Positions 14,291 to 31,171 of a DNA stretch of 64,000 nucleotides are shown here, piece by piece. Source of the DNA: a bacterium (lineage in GTDB: Bacteria > Bacteroidota > Ignavibacteria > UBA10030); assembly GCA_043803945.1 (NCBI GenBank), contig JAZDJN010000038.1, positions 1-64,000 of the forward strand, given 5' to 3'. The translations under genes were made by a program, and so were the position numbers. The notes below the pieces were generated by a model. That model was not told where the DNA came from and made no database searches. It saw only the letters and a list, made by a program, of their open reading frames with translations. The stretch's first letter is position 1; every line of letters begins with the position of its first letter.

Positions 14291-14312
14291 ACCTGGTTCC
14301 TCCAAAAAGTTA

Positions 14313-14800: not shown

Positions 14801-17800
14801 ATGAAGAACACTTTCCTTCCCTCCACCCTGCGTTTTCTAAAGCCGCTGAGCATCGCACTGGCACTCCTGCTTGCAGAACAACTGTTTGCGGGAAACGGTA
14901 AAATTACCGGACGCGTCATCGATAAAGAATCTCGTGAGCCTCTCATCGGCGCGAATGTGGTGATCACTCACTCGATCCTTTCTGACGGCTCAGAGGTTCC
15001 TCTCGACCGGCCGCTCGGCGCCGTATGCGACCTTTCAGGATATTATTTTATTCTGAATGTACCTCCCGGCACCTACGCCGTTAGAGCAAGTATCATCGGT
15101 TACACCTCCATCACGCAAAAACCTGTCCGCGTCGATCAGGACAGGACAATCACCGCCGATTTTCTCCTCTCCTCATCCTCGGTGGAGCTCCAGCAGGTAG
15201 TTGTCACAGCACAGCGTGAAATGATCAAACCCGATGTCGCCGGCACGCAAGAGGTAATCCTTACCTCACGCCTGGAGCAAATGCCGGTGACCCGGCTTGA
15301 TGAATTTGTGAATCGTGTTAAGGGGATCGAGCTGGTGAGTGGTGCGGATGGCAACGGCCTCAGTGTTCGCGGCGGAGCAATCCGCGAAACAGATGTAAGG
15401 CTGGATGGGATATCGCTGCAGGATCCACGCTCCGAAAATTCATACCTCGCATTGAACTCGACAACCATCGAAGAAATCCAGATCCTGACGGGCGGCTTTC
15501 AGGCAAAGTACGGAGGAGTCCGGTCTGGCTTGCTGAATGTGGTTACCAAGGATGGCCATCGAGACCGATACTCTGTTTCGGTGAAAGTTGATGTTGCTCC
15601 GGCGCAGAAGAAATTTTTCGGCACAAATCCCTGGAGCGATGAATCATGGATTTATAAAGTTTATGCAGGCCCCTATGCATGGCGGGGAGTACCAACTGGA
15701 GATACCACAGTGCCTCTCGAGTTCCGTAACTTCCGCGGCTGGGCAAATATTCTGACCCAAGACCGGAGGCTCGACTCGCTGAATAAATTGGAACTCTGGA
15801 AACGGCAGCATCCGCAATATGCTTTTGCGAACCGTCCCGATATTTTCTTCGAATCGAGTATCACCGGCCCATTACCCGGTGCTCTGATCCCGATCTTCGG
15901 TTCCTATGCAGAGCGCACAACATTCCTCTTTGGATTCAAATATGAAGATTCGCAACTCGCATTTCCACTCGGCCCGCGAAGTAACTATGTTGACTGGAAC
16001 ACTCAATTAAAATTGACCTCCACATTGAGTGATAATCTCCGCCTTTCTGTGAATGCGCTCTATGCCAACGTGGAAACTGTCAGCGGAGGCAGCACAACCA
16101 GCTATGGCGGGGCTCTTGTCGATGCTTCTTCGAGTTTCAATTTTCTCAACAGTACGGAATCGTCGGTACGGCAGCAGGCGCGGTTGCTTGCCGGCGATAA
16201 TCTTTGGCAGATATTCAACAAGAGCCGTCTGCAATTTTATGACCAGCGCTATTTTGTCGGTGGAATAAAACTCACCCACACACTTTCTTCCAATGCTTTT
16301 TATACATTCGATGTGCAAGTAGGGTATACCGATCAACGGCTCAATCCATTTTCTCTCGACACTTCACGAGCCGATTCATGGTTCACGCTTCCAGGGAGGA
16401 CAGGAGGAGTGGTTCGATTCCTCAACGCTCCTGTCGGAGGCACACCAAATGCCTCGACGAATCCGGGCAGTGATGCACTCAGCATGTGGCGGCTCTACGG
16501 AGGATTGCAGAGAATCGATTCTTCATACTCCCTGGTTACCCAGATAAAGGGTGATCTTACTGCGCAGTTCGGACGCCACCATCAGTTTGAAGCGGGATTC
16601 TCCGCTCGTCTGCAAAAATTATTCATCTATACAGGTACTTGGCTCCAGGCACAAATGTCGTTTACTCCCGACCTCTGGCAGTACTTTACAGCAACACCGC
16701 TCGAGATTGGATTGTATGTCCAGGACAAACTTGAGTTTGAAGGTATGATCCTTAACGCCGGTGTTCGTCTCGACTATTTGAATCCGTTGAAACAGGGGTA
16801 TGATGTCGGTATTCCGCCGGATGAGGACTACCGCAAACTGTATAATGATATTTATCAGAATCTCGGCGGTATCTGGGGAGGGTACGATCGCTGGCTCCTC
16901 TTCAGGGACTTGCTCGAAAATCCACCGGGCTGGCCGCGAACTGAAACCAGAGTACAGGCAAAAGTCTCTCCACGGCTCGGTGTCTCGTTCCCAATTACCG
17001 AGAGCAGCAAATTGTACTTCAACTATGGCCATTTCTACCAGCGCCCGGCAATTTCCTTTATGTATAATCAAACACTCGATTTGGCTGCGACAACACTTCC
17101 CACACCGAACCTTGAGATGGGAAGGACGGTTTCGTACGAATTTGGGTATGAACAGCTGTTCCTTGACGATTTTCTTTTCAATGTCACAGCGTACTACAAG
17201 GACATCCGCAATGAACCATTAAGCCGGCAGTACATCAATTATTTTCAAGATAATATCGTTCGGACATACGTTCCCGATGCCTACCGGGATATCAGAGGTA
17301 TTGAATTGCGCCTCGAACGACCCATGGGAAGCTGGATCACCTTCAATGCGATGCTGGATTACATGCTCCAAAGTGCCGGACAAAACGGGCTCTCCCGTAT
17401 TTATGAGAACAGGCTCGATGCAAAGGATGAGCTGCGGTCGGCGAACCTCTCCACCACAGAGCCGCGGCCCCGCGCCAATATCAACCTGAATATCCACACA
17501 CCGGGCGATCTCGGCCCGAGCATCGGCACCGAACATCCGCTCGGCGGTATCTACTTCAACTTCTTCTTTGAATGGCGCGATGGAGCTCGTATGCTCTGGA
17601 ATCCCGAAGAAGCCGATATGAAGAACCGGATCTATGTTGATGCCGTTGATTTCTGGAATCTCGACTTCCGCGGCTCGAAGAATTTCAATCTCGGACTTAT
17701 GAACTTTGAAGTTGTGGTGACGATAAAAAATCTCACCAACAACAAATGGTTGATTCCCGAAAACATGCTCCGTTCACAATACGACGAGTACAAAGCCTCG

Positions 17801-17941
17801 CTGCGCCTGCCGCATCAGGGTGGCAGCGATAAATGGGGTCAATGGGAGTCGGATGATGGCCATATTAAAACCGGCTGGTGGGATGCACCGATCTTCCTGA
17901 ATCCCCGGCGCATTCTATTTGGTATCCGCATGAATTTATAG
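14801..17941 (+). CDS. TonB-dependent receptor with N-terminal CarboxypepD_reg-like domain
   Basis: GKITGRVID...EPLIGANV; plug VRGG...DG, GGFQAKYG; SPRLGVSFPI; C-terminal PRRILFGIRMNL. Confidence 0.92.
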   Translation: MKNTFLPSTLRFLKPLSIALALLLAEQLFAGNGKITGRVIDKESREPLIGANVVITHSILSDGSEVPLDRPLGAVCDLSGYYFILNVPPGTYAVRASIIGYTSITQKPVRVDQDRTITADFLLSSSSVELQQVVVTAQREMIKPDVAGTQEVILTSRLEQMPVTRLDEFVNRVKGIELVSGADGNGLSVRGGAIRETDVRLDGISLQDPRSENSYLALNSTTIEEIQILTGGFQAKYGGVRSGLLNVVTKDGHRDRYSVSVKVDVAPAQKKFFGTNPWSDESWIYKVYAGPYAWRGVPTGDTTVPLEFRNFRGWANILTQDRRLDSLNKLELWKRQHPQYAFANRPDIFFESSITGPLPGALIPIFGSYAERTTFLFGFKYEDSQLAFPLGPRSNYVDWNTQLKLTSTLSDNLRLSVNALYANVETVSGGSTTSYGGALVDASSSFNFLNSTESSVRQQARLLAGDNLWQIFNKSRLQFYDQRYFVGGIKLTHTLSSNAFYTFDVQVGYTDQRLNPFSLDTSRADSWFTLPGRTGGVVRFLNAPVGGTPNASTNPGSDALSMWRLYGGLQRIDSSYSLVTQIKGDLTAQFGRHHQFEAGFSARLQKLFIYTGTWLQAQMSFTPDLWQYFTATPLEIGLYVQDKLEFEGMILNAGVRLDYLNPLKQGYDVGIPPDEDYRKLYNDIYQNLGGIWGGYDRWLLFRDLLENPPGWPRTETRVQAKVSPRLGVSFPITESSKLYFNYGHFYQRPAISFMYNQTLDLAATTLPTPNLEMGRTVSYEFGYEQLFLDDFLFNVTAYYKDIRNEPLSRQYINYFQDNIVRTYVPDAYRDIRGIELRLERPMGSWITFNAMLDYMLQSAGQNGLSRIYENRLDAKDELRSANLSTTEPRPRANINLNIHTPGDLGPSIGTEHPLGGIYFNFFFEWRDGARMLWNPEEADMKNRIYVDAVDFWNLDFRGSKNFNLGLMNFEVVVTIKNLTNNKWLIPENMLRSQYDEYKASLRLPHQGGSDKWGQWESDDGHIKTGWWDAPIFLNPRRILFGIRMNL

Positions 17942-18143: not shown

Positions 18144-20258
18144 ATGAATCACCTCATACGAACACCCTTCGCAGCGCTGTTGTTGTTCACCTGCAGCCTG
18201 GTTGGCCAACAGCGTAATTACGATCCGTTTCCGATGTCGATCGATGTTGGCAACTTCACCATGACTATGAACAAGCTGAATGGAGAGGGTGGACTATTGT
18301 CGCAATATAGCTGGATGCTCAGCGGAACAAATTCTCAAAAAACAGAACTCTTTTTCTGGCCTGCAGACCGGTGGCAAACCAATATGCTCTATCAGATATT
18401 CAATCCGCTTTCGTTGGACGATAACGGAATCCTCGATGAATTTCGCCAGCAGAGAGGAATGTATACTCGGGGTGAAGCGCTCACAAATCCCGGTAAAACA
18501 GATTGGGCATTCGAAGTGCGCCGCTACCGTCCTCCAATCATTATGGTGGATGGAATCCTGCTCAACCCACCGTACCGGTGGTGCGTTGACCCGAAGTTGA
18601 AATCAGATATGAAGCTGGAGTTTGAGGATGTGCTTGGACAATTTGGTTTGCGGAGTCATATAGAAATATACGCGTTCAGTAATCCATATTTTGCAGACTT
18701 CTTTATTTGGAAGACGACTCATAAATTCACGGGTGAAATAAAAAGGCCGCGGGAGGCCTCGCTGCCGACCGATACACTACCCGACCAGACCATACGGTTT
18801 TGGTGGCCGCTTGCATTTAGTTTTGGACCTTCCAAAATGGGAGAGTATAATACTATTGGCTATTTCGGCTATGAAGGTGAAGATGACCTTGACAGTTGGT
18901 TCAAACGGAAATCGGAGCTTGTCCCGGGACGCACACGCGATGAACTCTATGTGGCGTATTATTGGGATTCAGATAATCCCTATGCGGCTGTCTATACGAA
19001 TGGATTGACAGACGATACGGGAGATCCGGATCGGGTCAATGGATTTCTGCATGCAACACAAATTCCCGGCTATACCCTGCTCTATGCTGATAAAGCATAC
19101 AATCAGAAAGTAGATGATAAAACCCAGCCCTATTCCATGCCGCACGCGAGTATCGTTGAAGATCTCTGGGGCCGTCGCGATGTGGGATTGAAACAGACCT
19201 ATCGCGGCGATGACAATCGCGGCAAATTTCCATTGGATCCCATTTCCGCCGGTCTCTCCGTCAATCCGCAAAAAGGACCAATGCGATTCATTACCGTTGG
19301 GCCTTATGAATTGACGAAGAATAAAACGCAGGGCCGTGCTGATTCGCTGACGTTCGTCTATGCCATCGGTGTGGGCAGTATCGGATGGGAAGCCGCTGAT
19401 TCAATCGGCCGCCTCTGGTTCAATAAACAGATCTCCGATGCAACGAAAAATGAATGGGTCTTAAAAGGGCGCGATTCACTCTGGAAAACTCTCGACCGTG
19501 CAAATTGGGCTTGGGATCGCCTCAGCAAAGGATTGGGGATTCCTTCTCCGCCGCCACCTCCCGATATTTCTGTTGCCTCCGGACCCGATCGGGTGATCGT
19601 CTCGTGGTCTTATCCCGACGCAGCATATTTCAAAGATCCTGAAACCGGAGTTGATGACTGGTATACATGGCGTGTCTATCGAAAACAGGGTGCCTTCTTT
19701 GTCAACGATCCGCTTGATCAACGGAGCAAAGCCCTATGGATTCTTGTTCACGAGACAACAGACCGCAATCAAACAACCTTTATTGACAAAAATGTTCAGC
19801 GGGGAGTAGATTACTATTACGCGGTCACGGCTGTCGATAATGGTACTCAGAATTCCAGCGGACTCGATACCGGCGTGAAGCTGGAAAGCTCAAGGTATGT
19901 CACCCGTTCTCAGCTTCCCGTAACTTCATTTAAGCCAGGATTGAGTGAAGGGAATAAAGTCCGCGTTGTTCCAAATCCAGCGACAGTCGCCGCCGGCGGA
20001 TTGGGATTTGCCGGCACGCCGAATAAAATTCTCTTCGTCAATCTGCCGGTGAAATGTACGCTCAAGATTTATACCGAGACCGGTGACCTGGTCAAGACGA
20101 TCAACCACTACGGCACTGCAGACCATGAGTGGGACCAGCGTACCGATAATAACCAGTATGTCACGAGCGGGATTTATATACTTCTGGTGAGTGAGAGCCA
20201 GGGGCTCGACGGTCAAGCGCTGGATAATCAATTTGTTAAATTTGTTCTTGTGCGATAG
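18144..20258 (+). CDS. Secreted protein with FN3-like domain and T9SS type-A-like C-terminal sorting domain
   Basis: Signal; PPPP..V.VSW...YYYAVTAVD; VVPNP...IYTETGDLVKTI...WD...SGIYI...KFVLVR. Confidence 0.8.
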   Translation: MNHLIRTPFAALLLFTCSLVGQQRNYDPFPMSIDVGNFTMTMNKLNGEGGLLSQYSWMLSGTNSQKTELFFWPADRWQTNMLYQIFNPLSLDDNGILDEFRQQRGMYTRGEALTNPGKTDWAFEVRRYRPPIIMVDGILLNPPYRWCVDPKLKSDMKLEFEDVLGQFGLRSHIEIYAFSNPYFADFFIWKTTHKFTGEIKRPREASLPTDTLPDQTIRFWWPLAFSFGPSKMGEYNTIGYFGYEGEDDLDSWFKRKSELVPGRTRDELYVAYYWDSDNPYAAVYTNGLTDDTGDPDRVNGFLHATQIPGYTLLYADKAYNQKVDDKTQPYSMPHASIVEDLWGRRDVGLKQTYRGDDNRGKFPLDPISAGLSVNPQKGPMRFITVGPYELTKNKTQGRADSLTFVYAIGVGSIGWEAADSIGRLWFNKQISDATKNEWVLKGRDSLWKTLDRANWAWDRLSKGLGIPSPPPPPDISVASGPDRVIVSWSYPDAAYFKDPETGVDDWYTWRVYRKQGAFFVNDPLDQRSKALWILVHETTDRNQTTFIDKNVQRGVDYYYAVTAVDNGTQNSSGLDTGVKLESSRYVTRSQLPVTSFKPGLSEGNKVRVVPNPATVAAGGLGFAGTPNKILFVNLPVKCTLKIYTETGDLVKTINHYGTADHEWDQRTDNNQYVTSGIYILLVSESQGLDGQALDNQFVKFVLVR

Positions 20259-20267
20259 GAGGCTGCC

Positions 20268-21293
20268 ATGCGAACTCTTTCGAACACCTTCTTCCTCCTC
20301 ATGGTGATTCTCTTCATCGGCATGGGGAATGATGCCCGCGGGCAGATCACTAAGAAGGCACAGGTGGGATTCCGTTTCCTTGAAAACCCGATCGCAGCCG
20401 ATGTTGTCGGCCGCGGCTCGGCAGGAGTTGCCACGACACTCTCTTCAAGCGGAGTGTTCTGGAACCCGAGCCTGCTCGGTTGGATTCCTCAGAACGTTGA
20501 CCTCAGCCTGCATCACACCACCGGCATCGCCGATATCAGCTACAACGCGCTTGCTGGGGCAGTACAGATCAATGGTGTTGGAGTCCTTGGCATAAGTCTG
20601 CTGACCATGGATTATGGCACTTTTTATGGAACGCGGCGGGCAGCGAACAGTACTGGTTACATAGAAACCGGAGAATTTTCTCCCACTGCCTTTGCCGTCG
20701 GATTGGCATTTTCTCAGAAAGTGAGCAACCGTTTCTCGTATGGTGTTCATCTGAAATATGCGCAGCAGGATCTCGGAGCGGCGTGGGTTGCCGCAACCGG
20801 TTCCAGTATCTCCGATCCCGCTCTGGAAATCAGTGAACGCCAGTATGTCCAGAAAACTCTGGCCATGGATGTTGGTGCGTATTACGATTTTCTCTACAGG
20901 GGAATTCGCTTCGGGGCATGCCTGCAAAATATTTCACGTGAAATCCGGTATGAGAATGAAGCCTTTCCACTCCCATTTGCTGTCAGCTTCGGTGCGACGG
21001 TGGAACCGCTGCAATTTTTTAGCGAAGAGGAGAAGGATGTTTTGATTCTTTGCATCGAGTCGCGGCATCCCAGAGACTTCAATGAGAAGTTGAAAGTGGG
21101 AGCTGAATACAGGTTTCTCGATATCTTCACTGCACGCGCAGGGTACGCGACCAACTATACTGAACGGGGCTTCTCTGCCGGTATTGGAATCCGATACGAT
21201 GTGGCCGGTTTCCCTGTTCGTGCCGATTACGCGTATCAGGCATTCGGAGTTTTCGGTGCAGTGCATTATCTCTCACTGGCCGTGAGCTATTGA
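20268..21293 (+). CDS. PorV/PorQ-family outer-membrane beta-barrel
   Basis: AQVGFRFL, FWNPS.LG, RAGY, DYAYQAFGVFGAVH; terminal aromatic residue. Confidence 0.8.
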   Translation: MRTLSNTFFLLMVILFIGMGNDARGQITKKAQVGFRFLENPIAADVVGRGSAGVATTLSSSGVFWNPSLLGWIPQNVDLSLHHTTGIADISYNALAGAVQINGVGVLGISLLTMDYGTFYGTRRAANSTGYIETGEFSPTAFAVGLAFSQKVSNRFSYGVHLKYAQQDLGAAWVAATGSSISDPALEISERQYVQKTLAMDVGAYYDFLYRGIRFGACLQNISREIRYENEAFPLPFAVSFGATVEPLQFFSEEEKDVLILCIESRHPRDFNEKLKVGAEYRFLDIFTARAGYATNYTERGFSAGIGIRYDVAGFPVRADYAYQAFGVFGAVHYLSLAVSY

Positions 21294-21358
21294 CCGCTTT
21301 AAAAGAATCGCCGCCAAGATGAAGTAGAATTTTTTTATAATATTTTTAATAGCGAACT

Positions 21359-22303
21359 ATGGAACTGATAATTCAACCATATTCAGATCGTTACCGGGAA
21401 GAGGTACTTGCACTCTGGGCTGAAGCGCTTCCCCTCGACGCTATCACTAATGATATCCTGGAACAGCGAGTCCTGCTCGACGAAAACTTCGATCCCGAAA
21501 CATTTCTTCTTGCATTCGACAGTCAAGCGCTGACCGGTCTTGTGGTCGGTATCCACGCAAAACGCATGCCGCTCGGAGATGCCGATCCCGATGGAACGTG
21601 CTGCTGGATTACTGCACTCGCTGTCAGAAATAATGATTCTTTTCAGCGCACAACAACGAAACTTCTGGTGGAGATCGAGAATCGTTTTCGACAGTTGGGG
21701 AAAAAGGAATGCCGCGTCTCTGGTTACCCTCCGGGATACTTCACTCCTGGTATCGACCAGCATGCCTATGCTCATCTAGTAAGCCTGTTTCGGGAAAACA
21801 ACTACACGACGTATCATGAAGCTCTCAGCATGGATGCATCGATTGTGCTCTTCCAGATTCCCGTACAGATAGTAGCAATTGAAAATCAACTCCGGGATCA
21901 GGGAATCCGGATTCGATCGTACCAGAGAACTGATCTTGTTGCCTTTCTCGCGTTTCTTGAGCGGTCGATGCCGACAGATTGGGTGAGAGTCGAGCGGCGA
22001 AATCTCCGCAAGATAATTGAGGGGGGATTTCATCCTGAACAGATTATGGTTGTCACTGCCGGAGAACAATTGATCGGCTATTGCCAATTCGAGGGATCAC
22101 ACTTCGGGCCATTTGGTATCGCCGAGAATTTCCAGGGAAAGGGGATCGGCACGGTGCTGCTGGCCCGGACGCTGGAAAGGATGAGGATGGAAGGATACCA
22201 CGATGCCTGGGTGATGTGGACGGATGACCTCGCTGCAAAAGTGTATGAAAAATTCGGATTCAAGCAGACACGACGGTTTTCCATGATGAAGAAAGCATTA
22301 TAA
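21359..22303 (+). CDS. Tandem-domain GNAT N-acetyltransferase
   Basis: FGPFGI...QGKGIG, YEKFGF; two GNAT domains. Confidence 0.85.
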   Translation: MELIIQPYSDRYREEVLALWAEALPLDAITNDILEQRVLLDENFDPETFLLAFDSQALTGLVVGIHAKRMPLGDADPDGTCCWITALAVRNNDSFQRTTTKLLVEIENRFRQLGKKECRVSGYPPGYFTPGIDQHAYAHLVSLFRENNYTTYHEALSMDASIVLFQIPVQIVAIENQLRDQGIRIRSYQRTDLVAFLAFLERSMPTDWVRVERRNLRKIIEGGFHPEQIMVVTAGEQLIGYCQFEGSHFGPFGIAENFQGKGIGTVLLARTLERMRMEGYHDAWVMWTDDLAAKVYEKFGFKQTRRFSMMKKAL

Positions 22304-22376
22304 GTACTTCAATGGCAGACCGAGAGGCACTGTCAATCGTTGGCAAACTCTCAACATCAAAATAGTAGATAAAACT

Positions 22377-23081
22377 ATGGAACCGAAAAAAACAATTCTT
22401 GCTATCGGTGCACACTGCGGAGACATTGAGGTGACCTGTGCTGCCGTGCTCGCGAAGCATCGTTCACTAGGGGAGAGGGTGATTATTCTCCACCTTACGC
22501 TGGGAGAAGGCGGCAATCCCAAACTCTCTCCGGCACTCTATGGAGAACAAAAACGGCGGGAAGCTCTTGCAGCTGCCCAATGCATCGATGCCGAAGTACT
22601 CTTTGCTCCCTACAAAGATGGGGAACTGCCGAACGATCAGCAATCGCAGATCTATGTTGCCGATCTGATCAGGCAGGTGAAGCCTACGCACATCATTACC
22701 CATTGGCGAACCAGCATTCATAAAGACCACGTCAATACTCATGCGATTGTGATGGATGCTGTGCTGCTCGCATCATTGGTGGGTGTGGTAACAAAACATC
22801 CCGCCCATCGGGGAGTGAAGGCTATCTATTATACAGAGAATTGGGAAGATCCTGAGAATTTCAAACCGTACATCTATGTTGATATTACCGATCATCTACA
22901 AAGCTGGCAGGAATGTGTCACACAGTATGAGTTCATCAAAGGCGGGATATCTTTATTTCCCTATCTGGAATATTATCAAGCTCTTGCCCGGGTGCGGGGA
23001 GCTGAATCGGGAACCCGGTATGCAGTAGCGTTTGATGTCGATCCATTCGAAAAGAAACATCGTGTCGCCATGTTGCCATAA
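22377..23081 (+). CDS. PIG-L/LmbE-family N-deacetylase
   Basis: LAIGAHCGDIE, LTLGEGG, HKDH. Confidence 0.88.
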   Translation: MEPKKTILAIGAHCGDIEVTCAAVLAKHRSLGERVIILHLTLGEGGNPKLSPALYGEQKRREALAAAQCIDAEVLFAPYKDGELPNDQQSQIYVADLIRQVKPTHIITHWRTSIHKDHVNTHAIVMDAVLLASLVGVVTKHPAHRGVKAIYYTENWEDPENFKPYIYVDITDHLQSWQECVTQYEFIKGGISLFPYLEYYQALARVRGAESGTRYAVAFDVDPFEKKHRVAMLP

Positions 23082-23109
23082 AGCAACAGACGGCGGGAAA
23101 AATGATTCT

Positions 23110-24043
23110 ATGCCGTTCTCAATCAGATCATATCGATCGGAAGATGAACAGAGTGTAGTAGAATTGTGGAACGCGTGTCTGGTGCGCGATGAAATTACTC
23201 TGAACACTTTCCGAAAAAAAAATCATCCTCGATCCGAACTTTGATGCCGGGGGATGTTTCGTTGTTGAAGCAAATCAGAGGATTGTCGCATTCCTGCTCA
23301 GTATCTCCCGTCGATATCCTTATTTCGATGTGGGGTTGGAAAAAGGACGAGGATGGATCACGGTGTTTTTTGTTCATCCCGACTGGAGAAGAAAATCGAT
23401 CGCTTCGACGATGGTACAGGCAGCAGAGCACTTTCTACAGTCGCAGGGAGTAACCGAAGTCCATATCGCAGACTATACGCCAAACTACATCATTCCCGGC
23501 ATTGATCTGGATGTCTATGCCGATGCATCCCAATTCCTTAAATCACTCCACTATGAGAAGTGTCAGAATGTTTACAGCATGGGGCGTTCTCTGCTGGATT
23601 ACTCATTTCCCAATGATGTTAAGGAGCGGTTTACTCCATTGCATACCGCAGGATTCACTGTGGAAGTGTTTCATCCTAACCATACACTGGAGCTCCTGGA
23701 ATTTCTCAGGACCCATTATCCCGGCGACCTCTTTCGTGTTGCCCTCGACCGGCTCAGGGAAAATCCTGAATGTGATGAGATCCTTGTTGCATTAAAAGGT
23801 GAGAAGGTTGTCGGTTTCAGTCATTTCGTCGATGAACATTTTGGTCCCTTCGGGATTGATGAAGCGTATAGCGGCAGGGGATTAGGTCCAATGCTCTATT
23901 ATTATACCGTTGAGCAAATGCGCAAGAAAGGAAAACAAAACCTCTGGCTTGCCTGGACAACAGGGCGTGCAAAAGATTTCTATTATAAAGTCGGATTGAA
24001 AGTACTCCGCCGGCATGAAATTCTGAAGAAAGTATTGGCCTGA
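23110..24043 (+). pseudogene. Second tandem GNAT, frameshifted at an A9 tract (23214-23222)
   Basis: Removing one A joins MPFSIRSY...TFRKK to IILDPNFD...GLEKGRGW, giving 310 aa colinear with the 314-aa GNAT upstream. Confidence 0.8.
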
Positions 24044-24065
24044 TCATTTGAATGAAAGGTGGATA

Positions 24066-25832
24066 ATGAAAAGACCTATTATGCTTTTTATAATTTTCCT
24101 GGTTCTTGGCGCGAAATATTTGAACTCGCAACCAATCCGCATTGAGGTTGATGCGGCAAAGAAGATTCGAGCGATCAATCCCTGGCTCTATGGAATCAAC
24201 ACAGCGCGATGGGATGAATCGCTCTTTCCTGAACACCCCGACGAAATGCTGCTTACCGCCGATCGTGATGCAATCAAAAAGATCAAAGCATCTGGGATCA
24301 CTTTGTTGAAATACCCGGGTGGGAACGATGCCGACAGTTACATCTGGAACTCCCCCGACAACAATGTCTCGGAGATGCAGACCGATGAATATATTGCTCT
24401 CTGTCGTGAGGTGGGTGCGGCGCCGTTCATTACCATCAACTTTAATCAGACTCCCGAACTGGCGGCAGAATGGGTCCGCTACTGTAATCGGGAAAAGGGG
24501 TACGACGTGAAGTTGTGGGAGATTGGGGATGAGCGGTGGGGTACCTGGGCAAAGGGATATGTTCCTCCTGAAGAGTATGCGAAGAAATATATCCTGTTTG
24601 TCCAGGCTATGCGTGCTGTCGATCCGGACATAAAAGTTGCCACCAATGTTCCGCTGGGGTATCATCGTGAACAATGGACGGAGCGTGTCCTTCGCTCTGC
24701 TGTCGATTACGTCGATATGTTAACCTTTACCTACTTTCCACAGCAATGGGGAAAGGAAAATGACGACAGCCTGATGGCCAGTGTCGGCGTGTTCGAAAAG
24801 CTCGTCCTTCAGCTTCGAGAAGATGTTGAACGTGTGGTTGGGAAGAAGAAAGCTGACGAGATGCTCTATGTCAACGTAGGGTATAATTCGGTCAATCATT
24901 CTCCTGGGCATCAGACCCTTCAGATGATTAATGCGCTCTTCACGGCGGATATGCTTGGAGTGATGGCACGAACGGGAATCGATATCGGATGTTTCTGGGC
25001 GCTTCATAATTTTTATCCGCCGCGCGGCGGCGACTTCGGATTTATGTCATCGGAGGGAAAGAACACTCCTCGCTATTCGTATTATGTATTACCTCTTTTC
25101 TCAAAGTATCTTAAAGGAGAGCTTGTTGAGTCTCTGGGCGGCGGAGCGTTGGTCTCAACGTACGCAGCACGCGATGGCAAAGCGTTGTCAATTGCATTTC
25201 TTAACAAAGATCGTCGGGCAATCCAGTACGCTCAACTTCAAGTAAAAAATTTTACACCGCTGCAGAAAGGGATGGCTTATATACTTGATGCGACAAGGGA
25301 AATGAAACCGTTTAACCTTCCACCGCTTTCAGGAACTATGACTTTGAAATTGCCGCCCTACAGCCTGATTATGGTGAACATGATCGATAGCGATTCAACG
25401 CTTCAACCAGAAAATCTTACCCTTAACGCCTCCGCTGCCGCCTCTTCCTTCTCTACTATTGGGCCGCACTTCACACCGCCGAGTGCGATTGATGGTAAGA
25501 TGCATACACGATGGAATTCAGCGGCCTGGACAAAATCGAACGGTGAAGAATCGCAGTGGTTTCAACTCAGATGGAAAACAACGCAGACAATCCGGCGGAT
25601 ACGGATTCATTGGGGAGAATCTCCAGCACAGGAGTACGAAATTCTCCTCTCCTCGGATGGTGCTCATTGGAAAACTGTTAAGAAGGTGGCCGGGGGGCGT
25701 GGAGGAACTGAAGAATATTCCTTCGATGCACAGCGAGCCAGACAGTTGAAAATTATTGGGAAGAAAGGAACGAAAGGTATCTCGGCCTATTCGATTCGCG
25801 AGATAGAAGTTTTTAAAGAACCGATGAGATGA
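24066..25832 (+). CDS. Clan GH-A-like (GH51/GH44-like) glycosidase with C-terminal F5/8 (CBM32-like) domain; atypical catalytic residues
   Basis: Signal; LKYPGG..AD.Y.W, AAEWVRYCN, WEIGDE; AIDG...TRW, I.WGE, YSIREIEV. Confidence 0.8.
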   Translation: MKRPIMLFIIFLVLGAKYLNSQPIRIEVDAAKKIRAINPWLYGINTARWDESLFPEHPDEMLLTADRDAIKKIKASGITLLKYPGGNDADSYIWNSPDNNVSEMQTDEYIALCREVGAAPFITINFNQTPELAAEWVRYCNREKGYDVKLWEIGDERWGTWAKGYVPPEEYAKKYILFVQAMRAVDPDIKVATNVPLGYHREQWTERVLRSAVDYVDMLTFTYFPQQWGKENDDSLMASVGVFEKLVLQLREDVERVVGKKKADEMLYVNVGYNSVNHSPGHQTLQMINALFTADMLGVMARTGIDIGCFWALHNFYPPRGGDFGFMSSEGKNTPRYSYYVLPLFSKYLKGELVESLGGGALVSTYAARDGKALSIAFLNKDRRAIQYAQLQVKNFTPLQKGMAYILDATREMKPFNLPPLSGTMTLKLPPYSLIMVNMIDSDSTLQPENLTLNASAAASSFSTIGPHFTPPSAIDGKMHTRWNSAAWTKSNGEESQWFQLRWKTTQTIRRIRIHWGESPAQEYEILLSSDGAHWKTVKKVAGGRGGTEEYSFDAQRARQLKIIGKKGTKGISAYSIREIEVFKEPMR

Positions 25833-25972
25833 GTATTTGAAAGATTGAGATCTCAATGTTCAAAGATGGGATTGGTAAAAAACGAAGCGTGGGTGTCACG
25901 ATCCTACCGTGACACTTCAAAAGTAAAAGCTCTTTTAGCGTAACAGGAAGAATCGGAGTATCAAGACATACT

Positions 25973-27082
25973 ATGGAAGTACCACAGGAAGTATTGAAGA
26001 CTGCTCCCTCACGCATCGAATCGATTGATGCGTTCCGTGGATTTGCCGTCGCTGGAATGTTATTGGTCAACAATCCGGGCACCTGGGATCCAACAGTGGT
26101 GCCGCGTCTGTTGATGCATGCGGAATGGCATGGATGCACATTTGCCGATTTGATCTTCCCGTTCTTTCTCTTTGCTGTTGGCATGGCCATGCCGTTCAGC
26201 GAGAAACGGAAGTCTGCCTTAGAAATTCCGTACTGGAGGAAAATTCTTATTGCAGCAACGCGGGCACTTCTCCTTTATCTCCTTGGAGCATTTCTCAAGT
26301 CGGCTTCCCTCGATATTCCCGTTCTTCACTTTGGCATTCTCCAGCGAATCGGAGTCTTGTATTTCATTGTATATCTTTTACTGCCGCTGCGCATTCGAAC
26401 ACAGGCAATCCTTGCGGCGCTGCTCTTATTCGTCTGGTGGGGAATCATGCTGGTTGTTCAAGGCCCGGGTGTGGTTCCCGGCTCATTCGAACGTGATCTG
26501 AATGCTGCTCAATACCTGGATAGCTTCATTCTCGCACCCGAAGATAAGGAGACAATTATAAGTATGATTCCGGGAATATCGACCGTGCTCTTTGGCGTGC
26601 TCGCTGGCAGGATGTTGATGCAGGTGCATGACAATAGACGCGTTGTTCAGATGCTCTCTGCCGGAGCTGCGGCAGGAATTGCGCTGGGATTACTCTGGGA
26701 TTTGGTTGTCCCTCTGAATAAGATTTTATGGACATCCTCCTTTGCGGTCTTTACGGCCGGCTGGTCTTGCCTTGTCTTCCTCCTCTTCTACTGGATTACC
26801 GATATGCGGAAACTCAGGATTCTGTCGTTTCCTTTCATTGTCTACGGAATGAATGCTATCACCCTTTACATGGCTACAGGATTGTTTGTGCGCTGGGTCA
26901 TGCTTTCCTGGAAGGTTCCCTGGCAGGAGGGGACAATCTCTCTCACCGGATTTTTTTATCGAACGTTCGCTTCCGTCACAGGGCCGACTATCGGTTCGAT
27001 ACTTTATTCCCTGCTCATCCTCATCCTCGGATGGCTCCTCTGTTATTGGATGTACAGACGGAAATTATTTTTGAAAGTCTGA
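25973..27082 (+). CDS. HGSNAT-like (DUF5009/DUF1624) membrane acetyltransferase
   Basis: RIESIDAFRG, MLLVNNPG, HAEWHGCTFADLIFPFFLF, GILQRIG, NKILWTSSF. Confidence 0.9.
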   Translation: MEVPQEVLKTAPSRIESIDAFRGFAVAGMLLVNNPGTWDPTVVPRLLMHAEWHGCTFADLIFPFFLFAVGMAMPFSEKRKSALEIPYWRKILIAATRALLLYLLGAFLKSASLDIPVLHFGILQRIGVLYFIVYLLLPLRIRTQAILAALLLFVWWGIMLVVQGPGVVPGSFERDLNAAQYLDSFILAPEDKETIISMIPGISTVLFGVLAGRMLMQVHDNRRVVQMLSAGAAAGIALGLLWDLVVPLNKILWTSSFAVFTAGWSCLVFLLFYWITDMRKLRILSFPFIVYGMNAITLYMATGLFVRWVMLSWKVPWQEGTISLTGFFYRTFASVTGPTIGSILYSLLILILGWLLCYWMYRRKLFLKV

Positions 27083-27083
27083 T

Positions 27084-28295: not shown

Positions 28296-28442
28296 TGTGA
28301 GTTAATATTGTTCGAGCTGAATGCTAGATGAATGAACTTGTGGACAACTGAAGATGAATAGGAAATTCCGAGAAAATAAATAGTGTTCCCAAAATGAGTC
28401 AGTTTGGGATCTACTACGCGGAATTGCAATTTGCCGCTTAAT

Positions 28443-28496
28443 AGATCCCCGACGAAGGCATCCGGGGAACACTGATAAAATTGAGAATCAGTGTTG
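28443..28496. repeat. REP-like hairpin plus short aacactgat/atcagtgtt inverted repeat
   Basis: tccccg...cgggga; aacactgat-10 nt-atcagtgtt. Confidence 0.5.
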
Positions 28497-28619
28497 TCTC
28501 GCTACATTGACATTTTGCTATTTGTATCTTGATTCTTGATTTCAACGTTTGCCTGTCAGGAAACGATGGGATATCGTATCAAATAACAGCATCATCAAGT
28601 ACTGGGTGGATTGGTTACA

Positions 28620-30122
28620 ATGAATTTCCAGGCCATTGATTGGATTATTCTGGTTCTCTACCTCGGAGCCTCGGTGTTTATCGGTATCTGGGCAAAGCGG
28701 TACGTCGAAAATGTGGAGGGTTATTTTGTCGCCGGCAGACGGGTGAAAGTCGCTCTGGGTACGGCAACCCTGATTGCCACAGAGATCGGCATAGTCACCT
28801 TTATGTATTTAGGTGAACTCGGCTATGTCACAGGGTTTTCCTGCTTCTGGCTGGGGATCAATGGAGTGATTGGTTATCTGATTATTGGCAAAACCGGTTT
28901 TATTGTTTCGGAGCTGCGACGGTTAAAAGTAATGACCATTCCGGAATTCTATGAAATCCGGTTTAGTAAGAATGTGAGGCTGCTCGGCGGGATACTTCTC
29001 TTCCTGGGCGGTGTCTTGAACATGGGTGTCTTTCTCAAAATGGATGGAATCTTTCTCACTGAGACCATGGGATTCAGTCCGGATGTGCTCACGATTGTCA
29101 TGATCGTAATGCTTCTCATTGTAATCACCTACACAGTGTTAGGGGGGATGTTCTCTGTGGTCATCACAGACTTTATCCAGTTTGTTGTTCTCACCATCGG
29201 TATGCTCATTGCGACAATTTTTACTCTGACCCATGTCAGCTTCAGCGATATTGCCACAGCGGTCACTTCAACATATGGTGATGCCGGTGTGAATCCTGTT
29301 GTGAATCCGCGGTTTGGATGGATGTTTCTCATCTGGATTCTTCTCGGCAGTGTTGGTGCTTCTGCCTTGAATCAGCCGGCAACAACAAAAGCACTGGCGT
29401 CGGAAAATGCGGAGGCAGGAAGAAAAATATTTCTCTTTGCCGGTATCACGCTTGCAGGCAGATACATTATTCCGATGTTTTGGGGCGCTGCGGCATTGGC
29501 GATGTTCGGTCCGAATCTTAGTCCAACACTGGCGATGCCGAAACTGCTGGGGGCGGTGGTTCCTTCTGGATTTCTTGGACTCATGATTGCAGGTATGCTT
29601 GCCGCATCCATGTCGACCTATAGTGCCTATATGCTTGCCTGGAGTTCGGTAGCAACACGTGATATTATTGCGCCGTTAAGGAGGAAGGAGATGAGCGAGA
29701 AAACCATGATTTTGCTGAGCCGGGCGATTTCGACGGTCATCGGAATTTTTATTCTGGTGTTTGGGCTCTGGTATGAGATTCCTGCAACAGCCTTCCAATA
29801 TATCGCACTGACAGGAGCGATGTATGCTGCAGGCGCCTTTGGCTGTGTGGCGTTTGGCCTGTACTGGAAGAAGGCCAATGCCGTTGGGGCCTATAGTGCA
29901 TTAGCTCTTGGTGCCTTTTCACCTCTTAGTTTTCTGGTGCTCGAACAATTTAAAGAGAGTCTGCCGCAGAGCATCGTCTGGCTTGTCGATGTCAATATTT
30001 CCGGTTTCCTGAGTTTTGTACTTGCAGTAGCGGGTATGGTTGTGGGTTCGTTGCTGACGACGGGCAAAGTTCCACCGCGCCCGCTTCCAACACCATCAGC
30101 AAGGGAAGGAGTAGTGTTATGA
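28620..30122 (+). CDS. Sodium:solute symporter (SSS family)
   Basis: YFVAGR, TIPEFY..RF, YTVLGGM.SVV.TD..Q, AASMST; many TM segments. Confidence 0.92.
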   Translation: MNFQAIDWIILVLYLGASVFIGIWAKRYVENVEGYFVAGRRVKVALGTATLIATEIGIVTFMYLGELGYVTGFSCFWLGINGVIGYLIIGKTGFIVSELRRLKVMTIPEFYEIRFSKNVRLLGGILLFLGGVLNMGVFLKMDGIFLTETMGFSPDVLTIVMIVMLLIVITYTVLGGMFSVVITDFIQFVVLTIGMLIATIFTLTHVSFSDIATAVTSTYGDAGVNPVVNPRFGWMFLIWILLGSVGASALNQPATTKALASENAEAGRKIFLFAGITLAGRYIIPMFWGAAALAMFGPNLSPTLAMPKLLGAVVPSGFLGLMIAGMLAASMSTYSAYMLAWSSVATRDIIAPLRRKEMSEKTMILLSRAISTVIGIFILVFGLWYEIPATAFQYIALTGAMYAAGAFGCVAFGLYWKKANAVGAYSALALGAFSPLSFLVLEQFKESLPQSIVWLVDVNISGFLSFVLAVAGMVVGSLLTTGKVPPRPLPTPSAREGVVL

Positions 30123-30253
30123 CGCCAGGCACATTGGTTTGGATTATCGTATTTCTGATCTCTGTGTTACTCTTTTTTGGTGCGGCTGGATTCATCACAG
30201 TTCAGGGAATTAAAGACCTGCGTGATTTATTGAAACGATCAGAGAAGGAATAA
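30119..30253 (+). CDS. 44-aa single-TM protein, probable symporter accessory subunit
   Basis: MTPGTLVWIIVFLISVLLFFGAAGFITVQGIKDLRDLLKRSEKE; ATGA overlap with the SSS stop; RBS aaggag. Confidence 0.7.
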   Translation: MTPGTLVWIIVFLISVLLFFGAAGFITVQGIKDLRDLLKRSEKE

Positions 30254-30288
30254 TGTCGCTGGGTTTTTTCTGTTATTTCCTATCATTG

Positions 30289-30346
30289 TCTGAACCATGA
30301 TTTTCATGATTTACTCGATAATAAGGATGGAATTCCATAATTCAGA
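30289..30346. repeat. tctgaaccatgatt repeat downstream of GxxExxY
   Basis: tctgaaccatgattttcatgatt with partial inverse ccataattcaga. Confidence 0.7.
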
Positions 30347-30355
30347 TAACTGATA

Positions 30356-31149: not shown

Positions 31150-31171
31150 CAAGTGAGTAATCAGTGCAAGT

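What the first reader, a model, noticed from the sequence alone, without database searches (positions are those of the whole stretch)
24066..25832. Clan-A-like glycosidase with GNE changed to GDE and the nucleophile Glu apparently replaced by Gly
Seen: WEIGDERWG where GH51/GH44-like enzymes have WEIGNE, and YVNVGYNS where they have roughly I.vTEyN. Known: an adjacent Asp-Glu pair with no enzyme nucleophile is the signature of substrate-assisted hexosaminidases such as GH20. Inference: a mechanism-switched subfamily that needs the substrate N-acetyl group, which would explain the neighbouring N-acetyltransferases. The alignment is by eye.
Basis: partly seen in the sequence, partly recalled or inferred. 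Interest (0 to 1): 0.75.

Follow-up and report, generated by a model that had tools for sequence, protein, structure and literature searches.

The report
GH51-like glycosidase lacking its nucleophile
A secreted sugar-cutting enzyme related to arabinofuranosidases has swapped its own attacking residue for glycine and gained an Asp-Glu pair, so it probably cuts N-acetylated amino sugars from bacterial cell-wall debris using the sugar's own acetyl group.

Summary
Window 24066..25832 (+) encodes a 588-aa secreted protein: signal peptide, GH51-like (β/α)8 barrel with β-sandwich, and a C-terminal discoidin (CBM32-type) domain (AF2 pLDDT 95.5). WEIGDERWG lies on the GH51 acid/base motif (G-N-E). G272, at the end of strand β7, fills the column of the GH51 nucleophile (E281 of 3s2c).

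The change is neither chance nor decay. In a 106-sequence MAFFT alignment the two columns pair as N+E 63, D+G 40, D+S 2, N+K 1. All 137 D-E proteins examined lack a Glu there. Seventeen D-E representatives, some near 30% identity, form one branch (SH-aLRT 97.9). No replacement carboxylate appears.

In Ignavibacteria-type genomes the gene sits in a conserved operon: TonB receptor, two GlmA-like double GNATs, PIG-L deacetylase, HGSNAT-like NagX, a signal-less NamZ exo-muramidase and an SSF symporter. NagX or NamZ also flank divergent members in other gene orders.

Best reading (about 0.55): a clan-GH-A lineage converted to substrate-assisted β-N-acetylhexosaminidase catalysis, acting on peptidoglycan- or chitin-type glycans of variable N-acetylation. 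No activity was tested, and no residue-level superposition was possible. My literature searches found no description of this clade.

The parts
24066..25832 (+). Gene for the 588-aa GH51-like protein (P0001); the start at ATG 24066 is preferred over TTG 24048
   Evidence: ORF list and translation. AGGTGG lies 5-6 nt upstream of the ATG. Homologue N-termini align with this start.
24066..24131 (+). Sec-type signal peptide (MKRPIMLFIIFLVLGAKYLNSQ), no lipobox Cys
   Evidence: Read from the sequence. All 30 aligned homologues have a hydrophobic N-terminus. The assignment is by eye; no predictor was run.
24192..25109 (+). (beta/alpha)8 catalytic barrel, residues about 43-348
   Evidence: Secondary structure of the AF2 model. 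Foldseek top hits are GH51 3ug3/3s2c, E 1.6e-30, TM 0.73 by target.
24516..24542 (+). WEIGDERWG: end of beta4; E156 (24531-24533) is the predicted acid/base and D155 (24528-24530) replaces the clan-A Asn
   Evidence: D and E are present in 137 of 137 D-E-clade sequences, and the 127 N-E relatives have Asn.
24867..24890 (+). YVNVGYNS: beta7; G272 (24879-24881) occupies the nucleophile column, and V271 replaces the usual Thr
25119..25388 (+). C-terminal beta-sandwich of the GH51-type fold (residues about 352-441; N-terminal strand 24-36 probably joins it)
   Evidence: Strands in the AF2 model. Profile alignment covers the whole GH51 chain to its C-terminus. Which sheet the N-terminal strand joins is inferred by analogy.
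25431..25814 (+). F5/8 type C (discoidin, CBM32-type) domain
   Evidence: Pfam PF00754, E 5.1e-16, 59.4 bits against cut-off 28.2. The closest solved chains are 'Glucanase/Chitosanase' modules 2rv9/4zxe, E 5e-15.
14801..17941 (+). TonB-dependent receptor, first gene of the conserved cluster
   Evidence: Pfam Plug + TonB_dep_Rec + CarboxypepD_reg. Present upstream in 13 of 46 genome loci, many of which are cut short.
18144..21293 (+). 704-aa protein with a weak T9SS-type C-terminal match, plus a PorV-like beta-barrel protein
   Evidence: Pfam: the CHU_C and FlgD_ig matches are below their cut-offs; PorV scores 27.9 bits against cut-off 27. Syntenic in 18 and 21 of 46 loci.
21359..22303 (+). GNAT_A, 314-aa tandem-GNAT acetyltransferase with no signal peptide
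   Evidence: Pfam. Best PDB match is 5kga/5kf1 over the full length, E 2-3e-4. The identity of that entry as C. acetobutylicum GlmA is recalled.
22377..23081 (+). PIG-L/LmbE-family de-N-acetylase
   Evidence: Pfam PF02585, E 1.7e-23. BshB1 model scores 91.8 bits, below cut-off 182.5. PDB 6p2t, E 8e-12.
23110..24043 (+). GNAT_B, second tandem-GNAT, here interrupted by a one-base frameshift in an A9 run (23214-23222); the listed ORF starts at GTG 23330
   Evidence: Orthologues in 13 loci read through as about 310 aa.
25973..27082 (+). NagX / HGSNAT-like transmembrane acetyltransferase homologue
   Evidence: Pfam PF07786, E 7e-13. NCBIfam NagX, E 1.4e-48 but below cut-off. Aligns to human HGSNAT with His on His297. 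Proposed role from PMC9007349.
27084..28295 (+). NamZ (GH171 exo-beta-N-acetylmuramidase family) without a signal peptide
   Evidence: Pfam NamZ_N E 1e-81 and NamZ_C E 2e-46. N-termini of operon orthologues are short and non-hydrophobic. The two other paralogues in this genome carry signal peptides.
28611..30122 (+). Sodium:solute symporter, presumed importer of the products
   Evidence: Pfam SSF, E 1.2e-36. Syntenic in 27 of 46 loci.

Best explanation
The gene encodes a periplasmic or secreted glycoside hydrolase descended from GH51-type clan GH-A enzymes. It has probably changed its chemistry from double displacement through an enzyme Glu to neighbouring-group (substrate-assisted) catalysis.

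Proposed roles of the residues:
- E156, at the end of beta4, remains the general acid/base.
- D155 replaces the Asn that in clan A contacts the 2-substituent of the -1 sugar. It would orient and polarise a 2-acetamido group.
- Gly272 on beta7 replaces the nucleophile Glu. This leaves room for the acetamido oxygen to attack C1 and form an oxazoline/oxazolinium intermediate, which water activated by E156 then opens (net retention).

The enzyme would therefore be a beta-N-acetylhexosaminidase.

From the conserved operon I infer its job. Oligosaccharides from peptidoglycan (or chitin/chitosan-type glycans) with patchy N-acetylation enter through the TonB receptor. NagX re-acetylates GlcN ends from the cytoplasmic acetyl-CoA pool. 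The GH51-like enzyme, held on the glycan by its discoidin module, cuts beta-GlcNAc linkages. The SSF symporter imports the products, possibly MurNAc-GlcNAc. In the cytoplasm the signal-less NamZ, the GlmA-like GNATs and the PIG-L deacetylase finish the job.

Shown: fold, motif positions, conservation, monophyly, synteny. Inferred: mechanism, sugar identity, order of steps, localisation.
For: 1. Fold and homology. The AF2 model has pLDDT 95.5. Foldseek's best hits are GH51 (E 1.6e-30). Profile against PDB gives GH51 at E 5e-72 over the whole catalytic module.

2. Residue positions. D155-E156 lie on the G-N-E acid/base motif. G272 lies in the nucleophile column and at the end of beta7.

3. Selection. 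D-E is present in 137 of 137 clade members. The nucleophile column holds G in 132, S in 2, a gap in 3 and never an acid. In twelve distant members (31-36% identity to the reference row P0125, 33% mean column identity) W-E-x-x-D-E is invariant and the nucleophile position is G or S.

4. One origin. The 17 D-E rows form one side of a branch, SH-aLRT 97.9, with the trait columns removed.

5. Further active-site switches accompany it: His to Thr on beta6 (T 36, H 64 of 106), Asn194 where the N-E relatives have Val, Pro and others (N 42, V 39), Thr271 to Val and Asp312 to Ala.

6. No new conserved carboxylate. Every acidic residue conserved in the clade, other than D155, is shared with the N-E relatives.

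7. The adjacent D-E pair on a TIM barrel is the described signature of substrate-assisted hexosaminidases. [quoted passage not shown] For GH123 and four new beta-GalNAc-ase groups: Asp stabilises the 2-acetamido group and Glu is the acid/base (PMC11087588, passages).

8. Context. Of 46 genome loci, GNAT occurs in 37, PIG-L in 31, NagX in 27, SSF in 27 and NamZ in 24. Different gene orders keep the link: L043 (45% identity) has ABC transporter-GH51L-NamZ-GHL10-NagX-SSF; L085 (34%) sits next to NagX; L076 sits next to a NagD-type HAD and an APH-family kinase; L075 sits behind a GntR/UTRA regulator.

9. NamZ is known to work in alternation with an exo-beta-N-acetylglucosaminidase (PMC8054146, passages).

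10. MurQ is present in the genome.
Against: No enzymatic datum exists for any member.

I could not superpose coordinates. The geometry of D155 relative to a bound HexNAc, and the claim that nothing else reaches the nucleophile site, rest on alignment and strand positions only.

The genome already has 2 GH20 and 6 GH3 genes, so no metabolic gap demands this activity.

Several operons lack NamZ and NagX (for example L022, L023, L029, L041), and three Sumerlaeota loci have no informative neighbours.

The operon contains both a de-N-acetylase and N-acetyltransferases, which my pathway does not explain.

The NagX family is also related to a putative MurNAc transporter (PMC9007349), so its role as an acetylase here is not certain.

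Tyr273 next to Gly is Phe or Trp in some members, so no invariant Tyr like the conserved tyrosine of GH20 (mentioned in PMC10570127) was identified.

One N-E-group paralogue in a metagenome contig has D-E with the nucleophile Glu retained (L082). N-to-D alone therefore does not imply the switch.
Confidence: 0.55

Rival explanations
1. Inverting hydrolase. The Glu-to-Gly change opens a cavity for a water molecule under C1. D155 (or another shared carboxylate) acts as general base and E156 as general acid. No acetamido group is needed, and the substrate could be any beta-glycoside of the amino-sugar glycans handled by the operon.
For: Only two catalytic-type carboxylates remain, and they are invariant. 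The small residue (Gly or Ser) at the nucleophile site is what a water-filled cavity would also require. Context shows amino-sugar metabolism but not the mechanism.
Against: D155 is adjacent in sequence to E156 on the same strand end. Inverting enzymes normally place acid and base on opposite faces about 10 A apart (established knowledge, recalled). In clan A the equivalent Asn contacts the 2-substituent. The adjacent D-E arrangement is described for neighbouring-group enzymes. Geometry was not measured here.
Confidence: 0.15
2. Glycosidase for non-acetylated glucosamine (or muramic acid) residues. D155 is there to bind the 2-ammonium group, as acidic residues do in exo-beta-glucosaminidases and chitosanases. 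Catalysis uses an unidentified or exogenous nucleophile.
For: The nearest solved relatives of the discoidin module are named 'Glucanase/Chitosanase' (2rv9/4zxe, E 5e-15); that they bind chitosan is recalled. The operon is built around GlcN/GlcNAc interconversion.
Against: A free amine cannot replace the lost nucleophile, and no new carboxylate is conserved in the clade. If the enzyme took GlcN ends, the periplasmic re-acetylation proposed for NagX would work against it. The alignment printed puts Ser opposite a Glu of the chitosanase module; whether that Glu binds the sugar is recalled, not checked.
Confidence: 0.1
3. The reaction has a different outcome on the same scaffold. One option is a lytic-transglycosylase-like or transglycosylating enzyme, in which an intramolecular or sugar hydroxyl rather than water resolves the intermediate. 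Another is a phosphorylase using phosphate in the nucleophile cavity.
For: Loss of the nucleophile with retention of a single acid/base is also what lytic transglycosylases and some TIM-barrel phosphorylases such as GH112 show (recalled, not tested). Peptidoglycan context.
Against: All 30 aligned homologues have a signal peptide and a carbohydrate-binding module, which argues against a cytoplasmic phosphorylase. No phosphate-binding motif was looked for or seen. The lytic-transglycosylase variant would still be substrate-assisted and differs only in the last step.
Confidence: 0.1
4. A catalytically dead glycan-binding protein (pseudo-enzyme) that delivers oligosaccharides to NagX or the transporter.
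For: The canonical nucleophile is absent. An extra lectin-type domain is present.
Against: The acid/base Glu and the new Asp are invariant in 137 of 137 sequences, some near 30% identity, along with many barrel-mouth residues. This is not the relaxed pattern expected once catalysis is lost. Apart from the cytoplasmic NamZ, the operon would otherwise lack any periplasmic glycosidase.
Confidence: 0.08

Closest known systems
GH51 alpha-L-arabinofuranosidases (e.g. Thermotoga Araf51, PDB 3ug3/3s2c; Geobacillus AbfA 1pz3)
   Same: Best sequence and fold match: (beta/alpha)8 barrel plus beta-sandwich. The acid/base Glu sits in a W-x-[IV]-G-x-E motif at the end of beta4, and the P-G-G motif after beta2 is shared.
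   Different: Asn before the acid/base is Asp. The beta7 nucleophile Glu is Gly. His on beta6 is Thr. The Pfam Alpha-L-AF_C model is not matched, and the NCBIfam ArfA score (50.7 bits) is far below the 625-bit cut-off. An extra discoidin module is present. The gene context is amino-sugar, not arabinan.
Uncharacterised GH51/GH79/GH39-like 'N-E / T-E-x-N-S' proteins (sister groups, e.g. P0134, P0154, P0165)
   Same: 25-35% identity over the whole catalytic module; the same motifs apart from the switched residues.
   Different: They keep Asn-Glu and the nucleophile Glu. They carry CBM11, BACON and other modules, and atlas cluster names list CBM2. No function is known for them, so the ancestral specificity of the D-E clade is unknown.
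GH20 beta-hexosaminidases (and GH123, GH84, GH18): substrate-assisted TIM-barrel hexosaminidases
   Same: Adjacent Asp-Glu following Gly at the mouth of a TIM barrel, and no enzyme nucleophile. This is the described catalytic signature (PMC10570127; PMC11087588). That the GH20 pair also sits at the end of beta4 is recalled.
   Different: No detectable sequence relationship: Pfam PF00728 is not matched by this protein but finds two other genes in the genome. The clan differs, and the resemblance would be convergent. The other GH20 active-site residues were not identified here.
NagZ (GH3) / Atl-type GH73 N-acetylglucosaminidases working with NamZ in peptidoglycan turnover
   Same: Proposed physiological role: cutting GlcNAc-beta-1,4-MurNAc linkages so that NamZ can remove MurNAc (PMC8054146).
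   Different: Unrelated folds and mechanisms. Here NamZ appears cytoplasmic, which implies import of a MurNAc-ended oligosaccharide.
Lysosomal HGSNAT then alpha-N-acetylglucosaminidase logic; bacterial NagX
   Same: A transmembrane acetyl-CoA-dependent N-acetyltransferase makes a GlcN end cleavable by an N-acetyl-dependent glycosidase (abstracts PMC11199644 and PMC2757673 in the listing; NagX proposal PMC9007349). The catalytic His is aligned.
   Different: The linkage would be beta and the substrate bacterial. Coupling between NagX and this glycosidase is inferred from synteny only.

Membership tests
GH51 (CAZy) | (beta/alpha)8 barrel followed by a C-terminal beta-sandwich | tested here: met
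   AF2 model pLDDT 95.5. Foldseek top hits are all GH51, TM by target 0.71-0.74.
GH51 (CAZy) | Sequence membership by curated models | tested here: not met
   No Pfam Alpha-L-AF_C or ASD1_dom hit at E <= 0.01 in my scan, although the precomputed column lists PF22848. NCBIfam ArfA scores 50.7 bits against cut-off 625. phmmer to GH51 chains is significant (E 4e-19) but covers residues 25-245 only. CAZy/dbCAN assignment could not be run.
GH51 (CAZy) | Acid/base Glu preceded by Asn (G-N-E) at the end of beta4 | tested here: not met
   Glu is present and aligned, but Asn is Asp in all 137 clade members.
GH51 (CAZy) | Nucleophile Glu at the end of beta7 | tested here: not met
   Gly272 is in that column and on that strand.
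Clan GH-A (4/7 superfamily) | Catalytic carboxylates on strands 4 and 7 of the barrel | tested here: not met
   Strand 4 Glu is present; the strand 7 carboxylate is absent. Fold and descent are clan-A-like, but the catalytic definition is not met.
GH20 / clan GH-K | Sequence membership (Pfam Glyco_hydro_20) | tested here: not met
   No hit. The same model detects two other genes in this genome at E 1e-125.
GH20-type substrate-assisted hexosaminidases (mechanistic class) | Adjacent Asp-Glu pair at the barrel mouth and no enzyme nucleophile | tested here: met
   G154-D155-E156 follow beta4, and there is no acid at beta7. Signature as described in PMC10570127 and PMC11087588.
GH20-type substrate-assisted hexosaminidases (mechanistic class) | Retention of configuration, dependence on the 2-acetamido group, inhibition by thiazoline analogues | not testable with these tools
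   Needs enzyme assays.
GH123 / DUF4091 beta-GalNAc-ases | DUF4091 domain next to the barrel | tested here: not met
   No such Pfam hit. Architecture as described in PMC11087588.
CBM32 / F5/8 type C | Discoidin-fold domain above the Pfam threshold | tested here: met
   PF00754 scores 59.4 bits against cut-off 28.2, and PF22633 scores 55.2 against 27.8. The model shows a beta-sandwich at residues 456-583. Ligand specificity was not tested.

The most novel reading that the evidence does not exclude
A natural lineage inside the GH51-like part of clan GH-A has converted from enzyme-nucleophile to neighbouring-group catalysis, arriving independently at the GH20 solution (Gly-Asp-Glu after strand 4, empty nucleophile site). 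It works as the periplasmic partner of a transmembrane acetyl-CoA:glucosaminide N-acetyltransferase (NagX): GlcN ends of de-N-acetylated, lysozyme-resistant peptidoglycan would first be 'armed' with an acetyl group and only then cut. This would be a bacterial beta-linked counterpart of the lysosomal HGSNAT/NAGLU relay. It would define a new glycoside hydrolase family or subfamily and a new route of cell-wall necromass recycling in Ignavibacteria and relatives.
Probability: 0.3. Interest if true: 0.85.

Novelty: new variant of a known kind. Interest (0 to 1): 0.7.

Why it matters
A change of catalytic mechanism within one fold lineage is rare. It is informative about how glycosidases evolve, and about how nucleophile-less 'glycosynthase-like' scaffolds can stay active in nature.

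If confirmed, this would add a hexosaminidase class that current annotation misses. The NCBI records that carry a name call these proteins 'discoidin domain-containing protein' or 'hypothetical protein', and one JGI record says alpha-L-arabinofuranosidase.

It would also assign a role to a widely conserved ten-gene cluster of Ignavibacteria-type bacteria from sediments, groundwater and soils. And it would give a testable link between NagX-type transmembrane acetylation and glycan breakdown, relevant to the turnover of peptidoglycan or chitin necromass carbon and nitrogen.

Tried and rejected
- **Expression.** For window 21359-30122, no public run (and so no RNA holder) was listed. This says nothing about expression, and read laying was not used.
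- **Promoter and terminator scan, 14000-31200.** 26 and 19 sites against 23.5 and 16.8 in shuffles, so uninformative.
- **Earlier findings of this scan.** Searches by place, sequence and words returned nothing.
- **Literature.** No paper on a D-E/Gly GH51-like enzyme appeared in four searches: 'substrate-assisted + GH51 + N-acetyl' (4 papers listed, none relevant by title or abstract start); 'lacks the catalytic nucleophile / clan GH-A' (0 papers); 'peptidoglycan + polysaccharide utilization locus + N-acetylmuramidase + necromass' (none relevant by title or abstract start); and 'new glycoside hydrolase family + substrate-assisted + N-acetylglucosaminidase', 2019 onwards (the two relevant papers describe unrelated families GH185 and GH123-like). 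Subscription journals are mostly outside the library.
- **PDB codes.** A search for the codes 5KF1/5KGA/5KF8 gave only unrelated papers. Reith & Mayer 2011 (PMC3187384) is not held, so the identity of 5kf1 as GlmA is recalled.
- **Metagenome scan.** The first attempt, with a 12-sequence alignment, was rejected for lack of a conserved stretch. A 4-sequence alignment worked but mostly returned the same operon type.
- **Sumerlaeota loci L044-L046.** They lie beside ribosomal and RNA-polymerase genes and give no functional hint.
- **ESM atlas.** Returned only generic GH51/GH39/GH79-like clusters.
- **Alternative nucleophile.** I looked for a conserved acidic residue specific to the clade and found none.
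- **FastTree.** It placed one long-branch N-E sequence (P0166) inside the D-E group. With IQ-TREE under a site-heterogeneous model it moved out.
- **Residue-level superposition on GH20/GH51 complexes.** Not possible, because model coordinates are not exposed.
Full report
**What is there.** Window 24066..25832 (+) is an intact ORF of 588 codons, preceded by an AGGTGG-like ribosome-binding site. The product has four parts: an N-terminal hydrophobic signal sequence without a lipobox; a catalytic module of about 420 residues; a C-terminal beta-sandwich within that module; and a final F5/8 type C (discoidin, CBM32-type) domain. The discoidin domain matches Pfam PF00754 at E 5.1e-16, above the curated cut-off. 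Pfam gives only a sub-threshold GH79 match for the catalytic part. NCBIfam's ArfA model scores 50.7 bits against a cut-off of 625.

**Checking the observation.** Nucleotides 24516-24542 read WEIGDERWG and 24867-24890 read YVNVGYNS.
- phmmer against all PDB chains finds GH51 arabinofuranosidases first (3s2c, 4atw, 3ug3; E 4e-19 to 8e-18). It aligns WEIGDE with their WGIGNE, but this single-sequence alignment stops near residue 245, before the nucleophile.
- To reach the nucleophile I built a 106-sequence alignment of close and distant homologues (A2). Its profile matches GH51 chains over the entire module (E 5e-72). The profile consensus '...vtEyNs' lies on 'IALDEWN' of 3s2c; counting the printed numbering, the Glu residues are 172 (acid/base motif) and 281. 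That these are the catalytic pair of Thermotoga Araf51 is my recollection.
- In A2 the column of that Glu contains G272 of the window protein.
- An AlphaFold2 model made with A2 is very confident (mean pLDDT 95.5, pTM 0.91). It places LWEI 150-153 on strand beta4, followed by G-D-E, and LYVNVGY 267-273 on strand beta7.
- Foldseek against the PDB returns GH51 enzymes first (E 1.6e-30, TM 0.73 by target), then GH44, GH30 and GH79.

**Is it chance or decay?**
- A word-indexed search found 250 relatives, of which the best 120 were listed. These share 56-74% identity and mostly come from MAGs labelled Ignavibacteria or Bacteroidota; the NCBI records that carry a name say 'discoidin domain-containing protein' or 'hypothetical protein'. 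In 30 of these, D155, E156 and N270-V271-G272-Y273-N274-S275 are invariant.
- An exhaustive HMMER search of 1.84 billion representatives gave 3555 hits at E <= 1e-3; I examined the best 150.
- I aligned all 270 proteins in hand to the family HMM. Of these, 137 have D-E, 127 have N-E and 6 have neither. Among the D-E set the nucleophile column holds G in 132, S in 2, a gap in 3 and never E. Among the N-E set it holds E in 95, with the remainder mostly local misalignments or gaps.
- In the independent MAFFT alignment the joint states are (N,E) 63, (D,G) 40, (D,S) 2 and (N,K) 1.
- Other barrel-mouth positions switch with them: His to Thr on beta6 (T 36, H 64), Asn194 where the N-E relatives have Val, Pro and others (N 42, V 39), Thr271 to Val and Asp312 to Ala.
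- Twelve distant D-E members (31-36% identity to the reference row P0125, 33% mean column identity) keep W-E-x-x-D-E invariant and have G or S at the nucleophile position.
- Every acidic residue conserved in the clade, apart from D155, is shared with the N-E relatives. No substitute nucleophile has appeared.

**Phylogeny.** A FastTree of 133 rows put 21 D-E rows in one group together with one long-branch N-E row. I then used IQ-TREE with a site-heterogeneous model on 45 rows. These were a hand-picked subset: 17 D-E and 28 N-E rows out of the 133 in the FastTree, with the five trait columns removed. There the 17 D-E rows form one side of a branch with SH-aLRT 97.9. The switch thus happened once and has been kept. 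The co-variation is one event, not many, but its retention across this much divergence argues for selection on a working active site.

**One exception.** A metagenome contig (L082) carries two tandem copies of an N-E-type relative with CBM11. One copy reads WEIGDE while keeping the nucleophile Glu. N-to-D alone can therefore occur without the rest.

**Surroundings.** The gene is the seventh of a co-oriented cluster:
- TonB-dependent receptor (14801-17941).
- A 704-aa protein with weak T9SS-tail matches.
- A PorV-like protein.
- A 314-aa tandem GNAT (GNAT_A).
- A PIG-L/LmbE de-N-acetylase.
- A second tandem GNAT (GNAT_B).
- The GH51-like gene.
- A NagX/HGSNAT-like membrane protein.
- NamZ (GH171 exo-beta-N-acetylmuramidase family).
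- A sodium:solute symporter.

Synteny was checked in 46 loci from reference genomes, mostly Ignavibacteria-type MAGs and three Sumerlaeota. tblastn with the window's proteins found a GNAT in 37, PIG-L in 31, NagX in 27, SSF in 27 and NamZ in 24. Many contigs are cut short. Five loci show none of these: two are short contigs and three are the Sumerlaeota loci. GNAT_A and GNAT_B are paralogues and can cross-hit, so their counts are not independent.

The association survives rearrangement:
- L043 (45% identity) reads ABC transporter-GH51L-NamZ-GHL10-NagX-SSF-SSF.
- L085 (34%) is followed by a NagX homologue.
- L076 (44%) follows a NagD-type HAD phosphatase, with an APH-family kinase and a xylose-isomerase-like TIM protein on the opposite strand upstream.
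- L075 (37%) follows a GntR/UTRA regulator and precedes an ABC sugar transporter.
- Some operons lack NamZ and NagX altogether (L022, L023, L029, L041).

**What the neighbours say.**
- The NagX homologue aligns to human HGSNAT (E 2e-15), with its His opposite His297. That is the residue named as catalytic in PMC9007349. The same paper proposes, from fitness data in five bacteria, that NagX acetylates periplasmic glucosamine with cytoplasmic acetyl-CoA. It also notes a distant relation to a putative MurNAc transporter (passages).
- GNAT_A's best solved relative is 5kf1/5kga, matched over its full length at a weak E of 2-3e-4. I recall this entry as GlmA of Clostridium acetobutylicum, the glucosamine/glucosaminide N-acetyltransferase of Reith & Mayer 2011, but could not confirm it. 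The paper is cited in the reference list of PMC4680927 and is not held.
- NamZ removes non-reducing MurNAc from peptide-free peptidoglycan fragments. In Bacillus subtilis it acts in alternation with the exo-N-acetylglucosaminidase NagZ (PMC8054146, passages).
- The operon's NamZ has no signal peptide here. Of 15 orthologous operons checked, 13 gave a short, non-hydrophobic N-terminus. The other two (L010, L013) gave an upstream reading-frame extension overlapping NagX, which I take to be an ORF-calling artefact. The two other NamZ paralogues of this genome do have signal peptides. A MurNAc-ended oligosaccharide is therefore probably imported.
- The genome has MurQ above its curated cut-off. 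It also has two GH20 and six GH3 genes, so the GH51-like enzyme is not needed to fill an obvious gap.

**Mechanistic reading.** In clan GH-A the Asn before the acid/base contacts the 2-substituent of the -1 sugar (established knowledge, recalled). In GH20, GH123 and related families an Asp immediately before the acid/base Glu positions the substrate's 2-acetamido group, which acts as the nucleophile, and no enzyme nucleophile exists. [quoted passage not shown]

The clade described here has exactly these two changes on a GH51-type scaffold: G-D-E after beta4 and a small residue where the nucleophile was. The most economical explanation is a substrate-assisted beta-N-acetylhexosaminidase. The operon adds a rationale. 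An enzyme that needs the N-acetyl group would be blocked by de-N-acetylated residues, and the cluster carries a periplasm-facing acetyltransferase candidate next to it. I put this reading at about 0.55. The specific peptidoglycan GlcNAc-MurNAc assignment is less certain, about 0.35.

**Weaknesses.**
- Nothing was assayed.
- The presence of both a de-N-acetylase and N-acetyltransferases in the operon is unexplained.
- The nearest solved relatives of the discoidin module are chitosanase/glucanase modules (E 5e-15). This is a lead towards GlcN-containing polymers, not a specificity assignment.
- The rivals are not excluded: an inverting enzyme with water in the Gly cavity, a GlcN-directed enzyme, a different reaction outcome, or a binding pseudo-enzyme.

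**Novelty.** The fold (GH51-like) and the proposed mechanism (GH20-like) are each known. Their combination in a natural, conserved clade was not found in my four literature searches, and nothing came from this scan's earlier notes. The clade fails the catalytic definition of GH51 and clan GH-A, and it is not a sequence member of GH20 or GH123. I classify it as a new variant of a known kind and score interest at 0.7.

Noticed in passing
window 23110-24043 (+), A-run at 23214-23222: The second tandem-GNAT gene (GNAT_B) is split by a one-base frameshift inside a run of nine A. The N-terminal 37 or so residues (MPFSIRSYRSEDEQ...) are in another frame than the listed ORF, which starts at GTG 23330. 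Orthologues in 13 loci read through as about 310-aa proteins. This could be a homopolymer assembly error or a real lesion.
   Followed up: partly
L082:7500-13462 (metagenome contig): Two tandem paralogues of an N-E-type relative (CBM11/CBM30-bearing, 'WLTEWNSV' nucleophile motif). One has WEIGNE and the other WEIGDE, with the nucleophile Glu retained. This is the only D-E plus Glu combination seen.
   Followed up: partly
window 27084-28295; L060, L061 (own genome): The operon's NamZ lacks a signal peptide, whereas the two other NamZ paralogues in the same genome have clear ones. This suggests a cytoplasmic exo-muramidase acting on imported MurNAc-ended oligosaccharides.
   Followed up: partly
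window 18144-21293 (+): The TonB-dependent receptor is followed by a 704-aa protein with weak T9SS-tail-like matches and a PorV-like barrel, not by a SusD-like protein. The trio is conserved in the orthologous operons (18 and 21 of 46 loci).
   Followed up: no
L043:6401-7942 (+): In a rearranged version of the cluster, a GHL10 (PF02638) putative glycosidase sits between NamZ and NagX. It is another uncharacterised candidate enzyme of the same pathway.
   Followed up: no
window 36655-45155 (+): Cluster of three GFO/IDH/MocA oxidoreductases, a xylose-isomerase-like TIM protein, an 848-aa HEAT-repeat protein and a 3-keto-disaccharide hydrolase domain protein. This make-up is reminiscent of oxidative (3-keto) glycoside cleavage pathways.
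   Followed up: no
window 11954-13732 (-): Adjacent DUF4276 and AAA_21 (AbiEii-like ATPase) genes. I recall such a two-gene pair from defence-island contexts; no defence library was searched.
   Followed up: no
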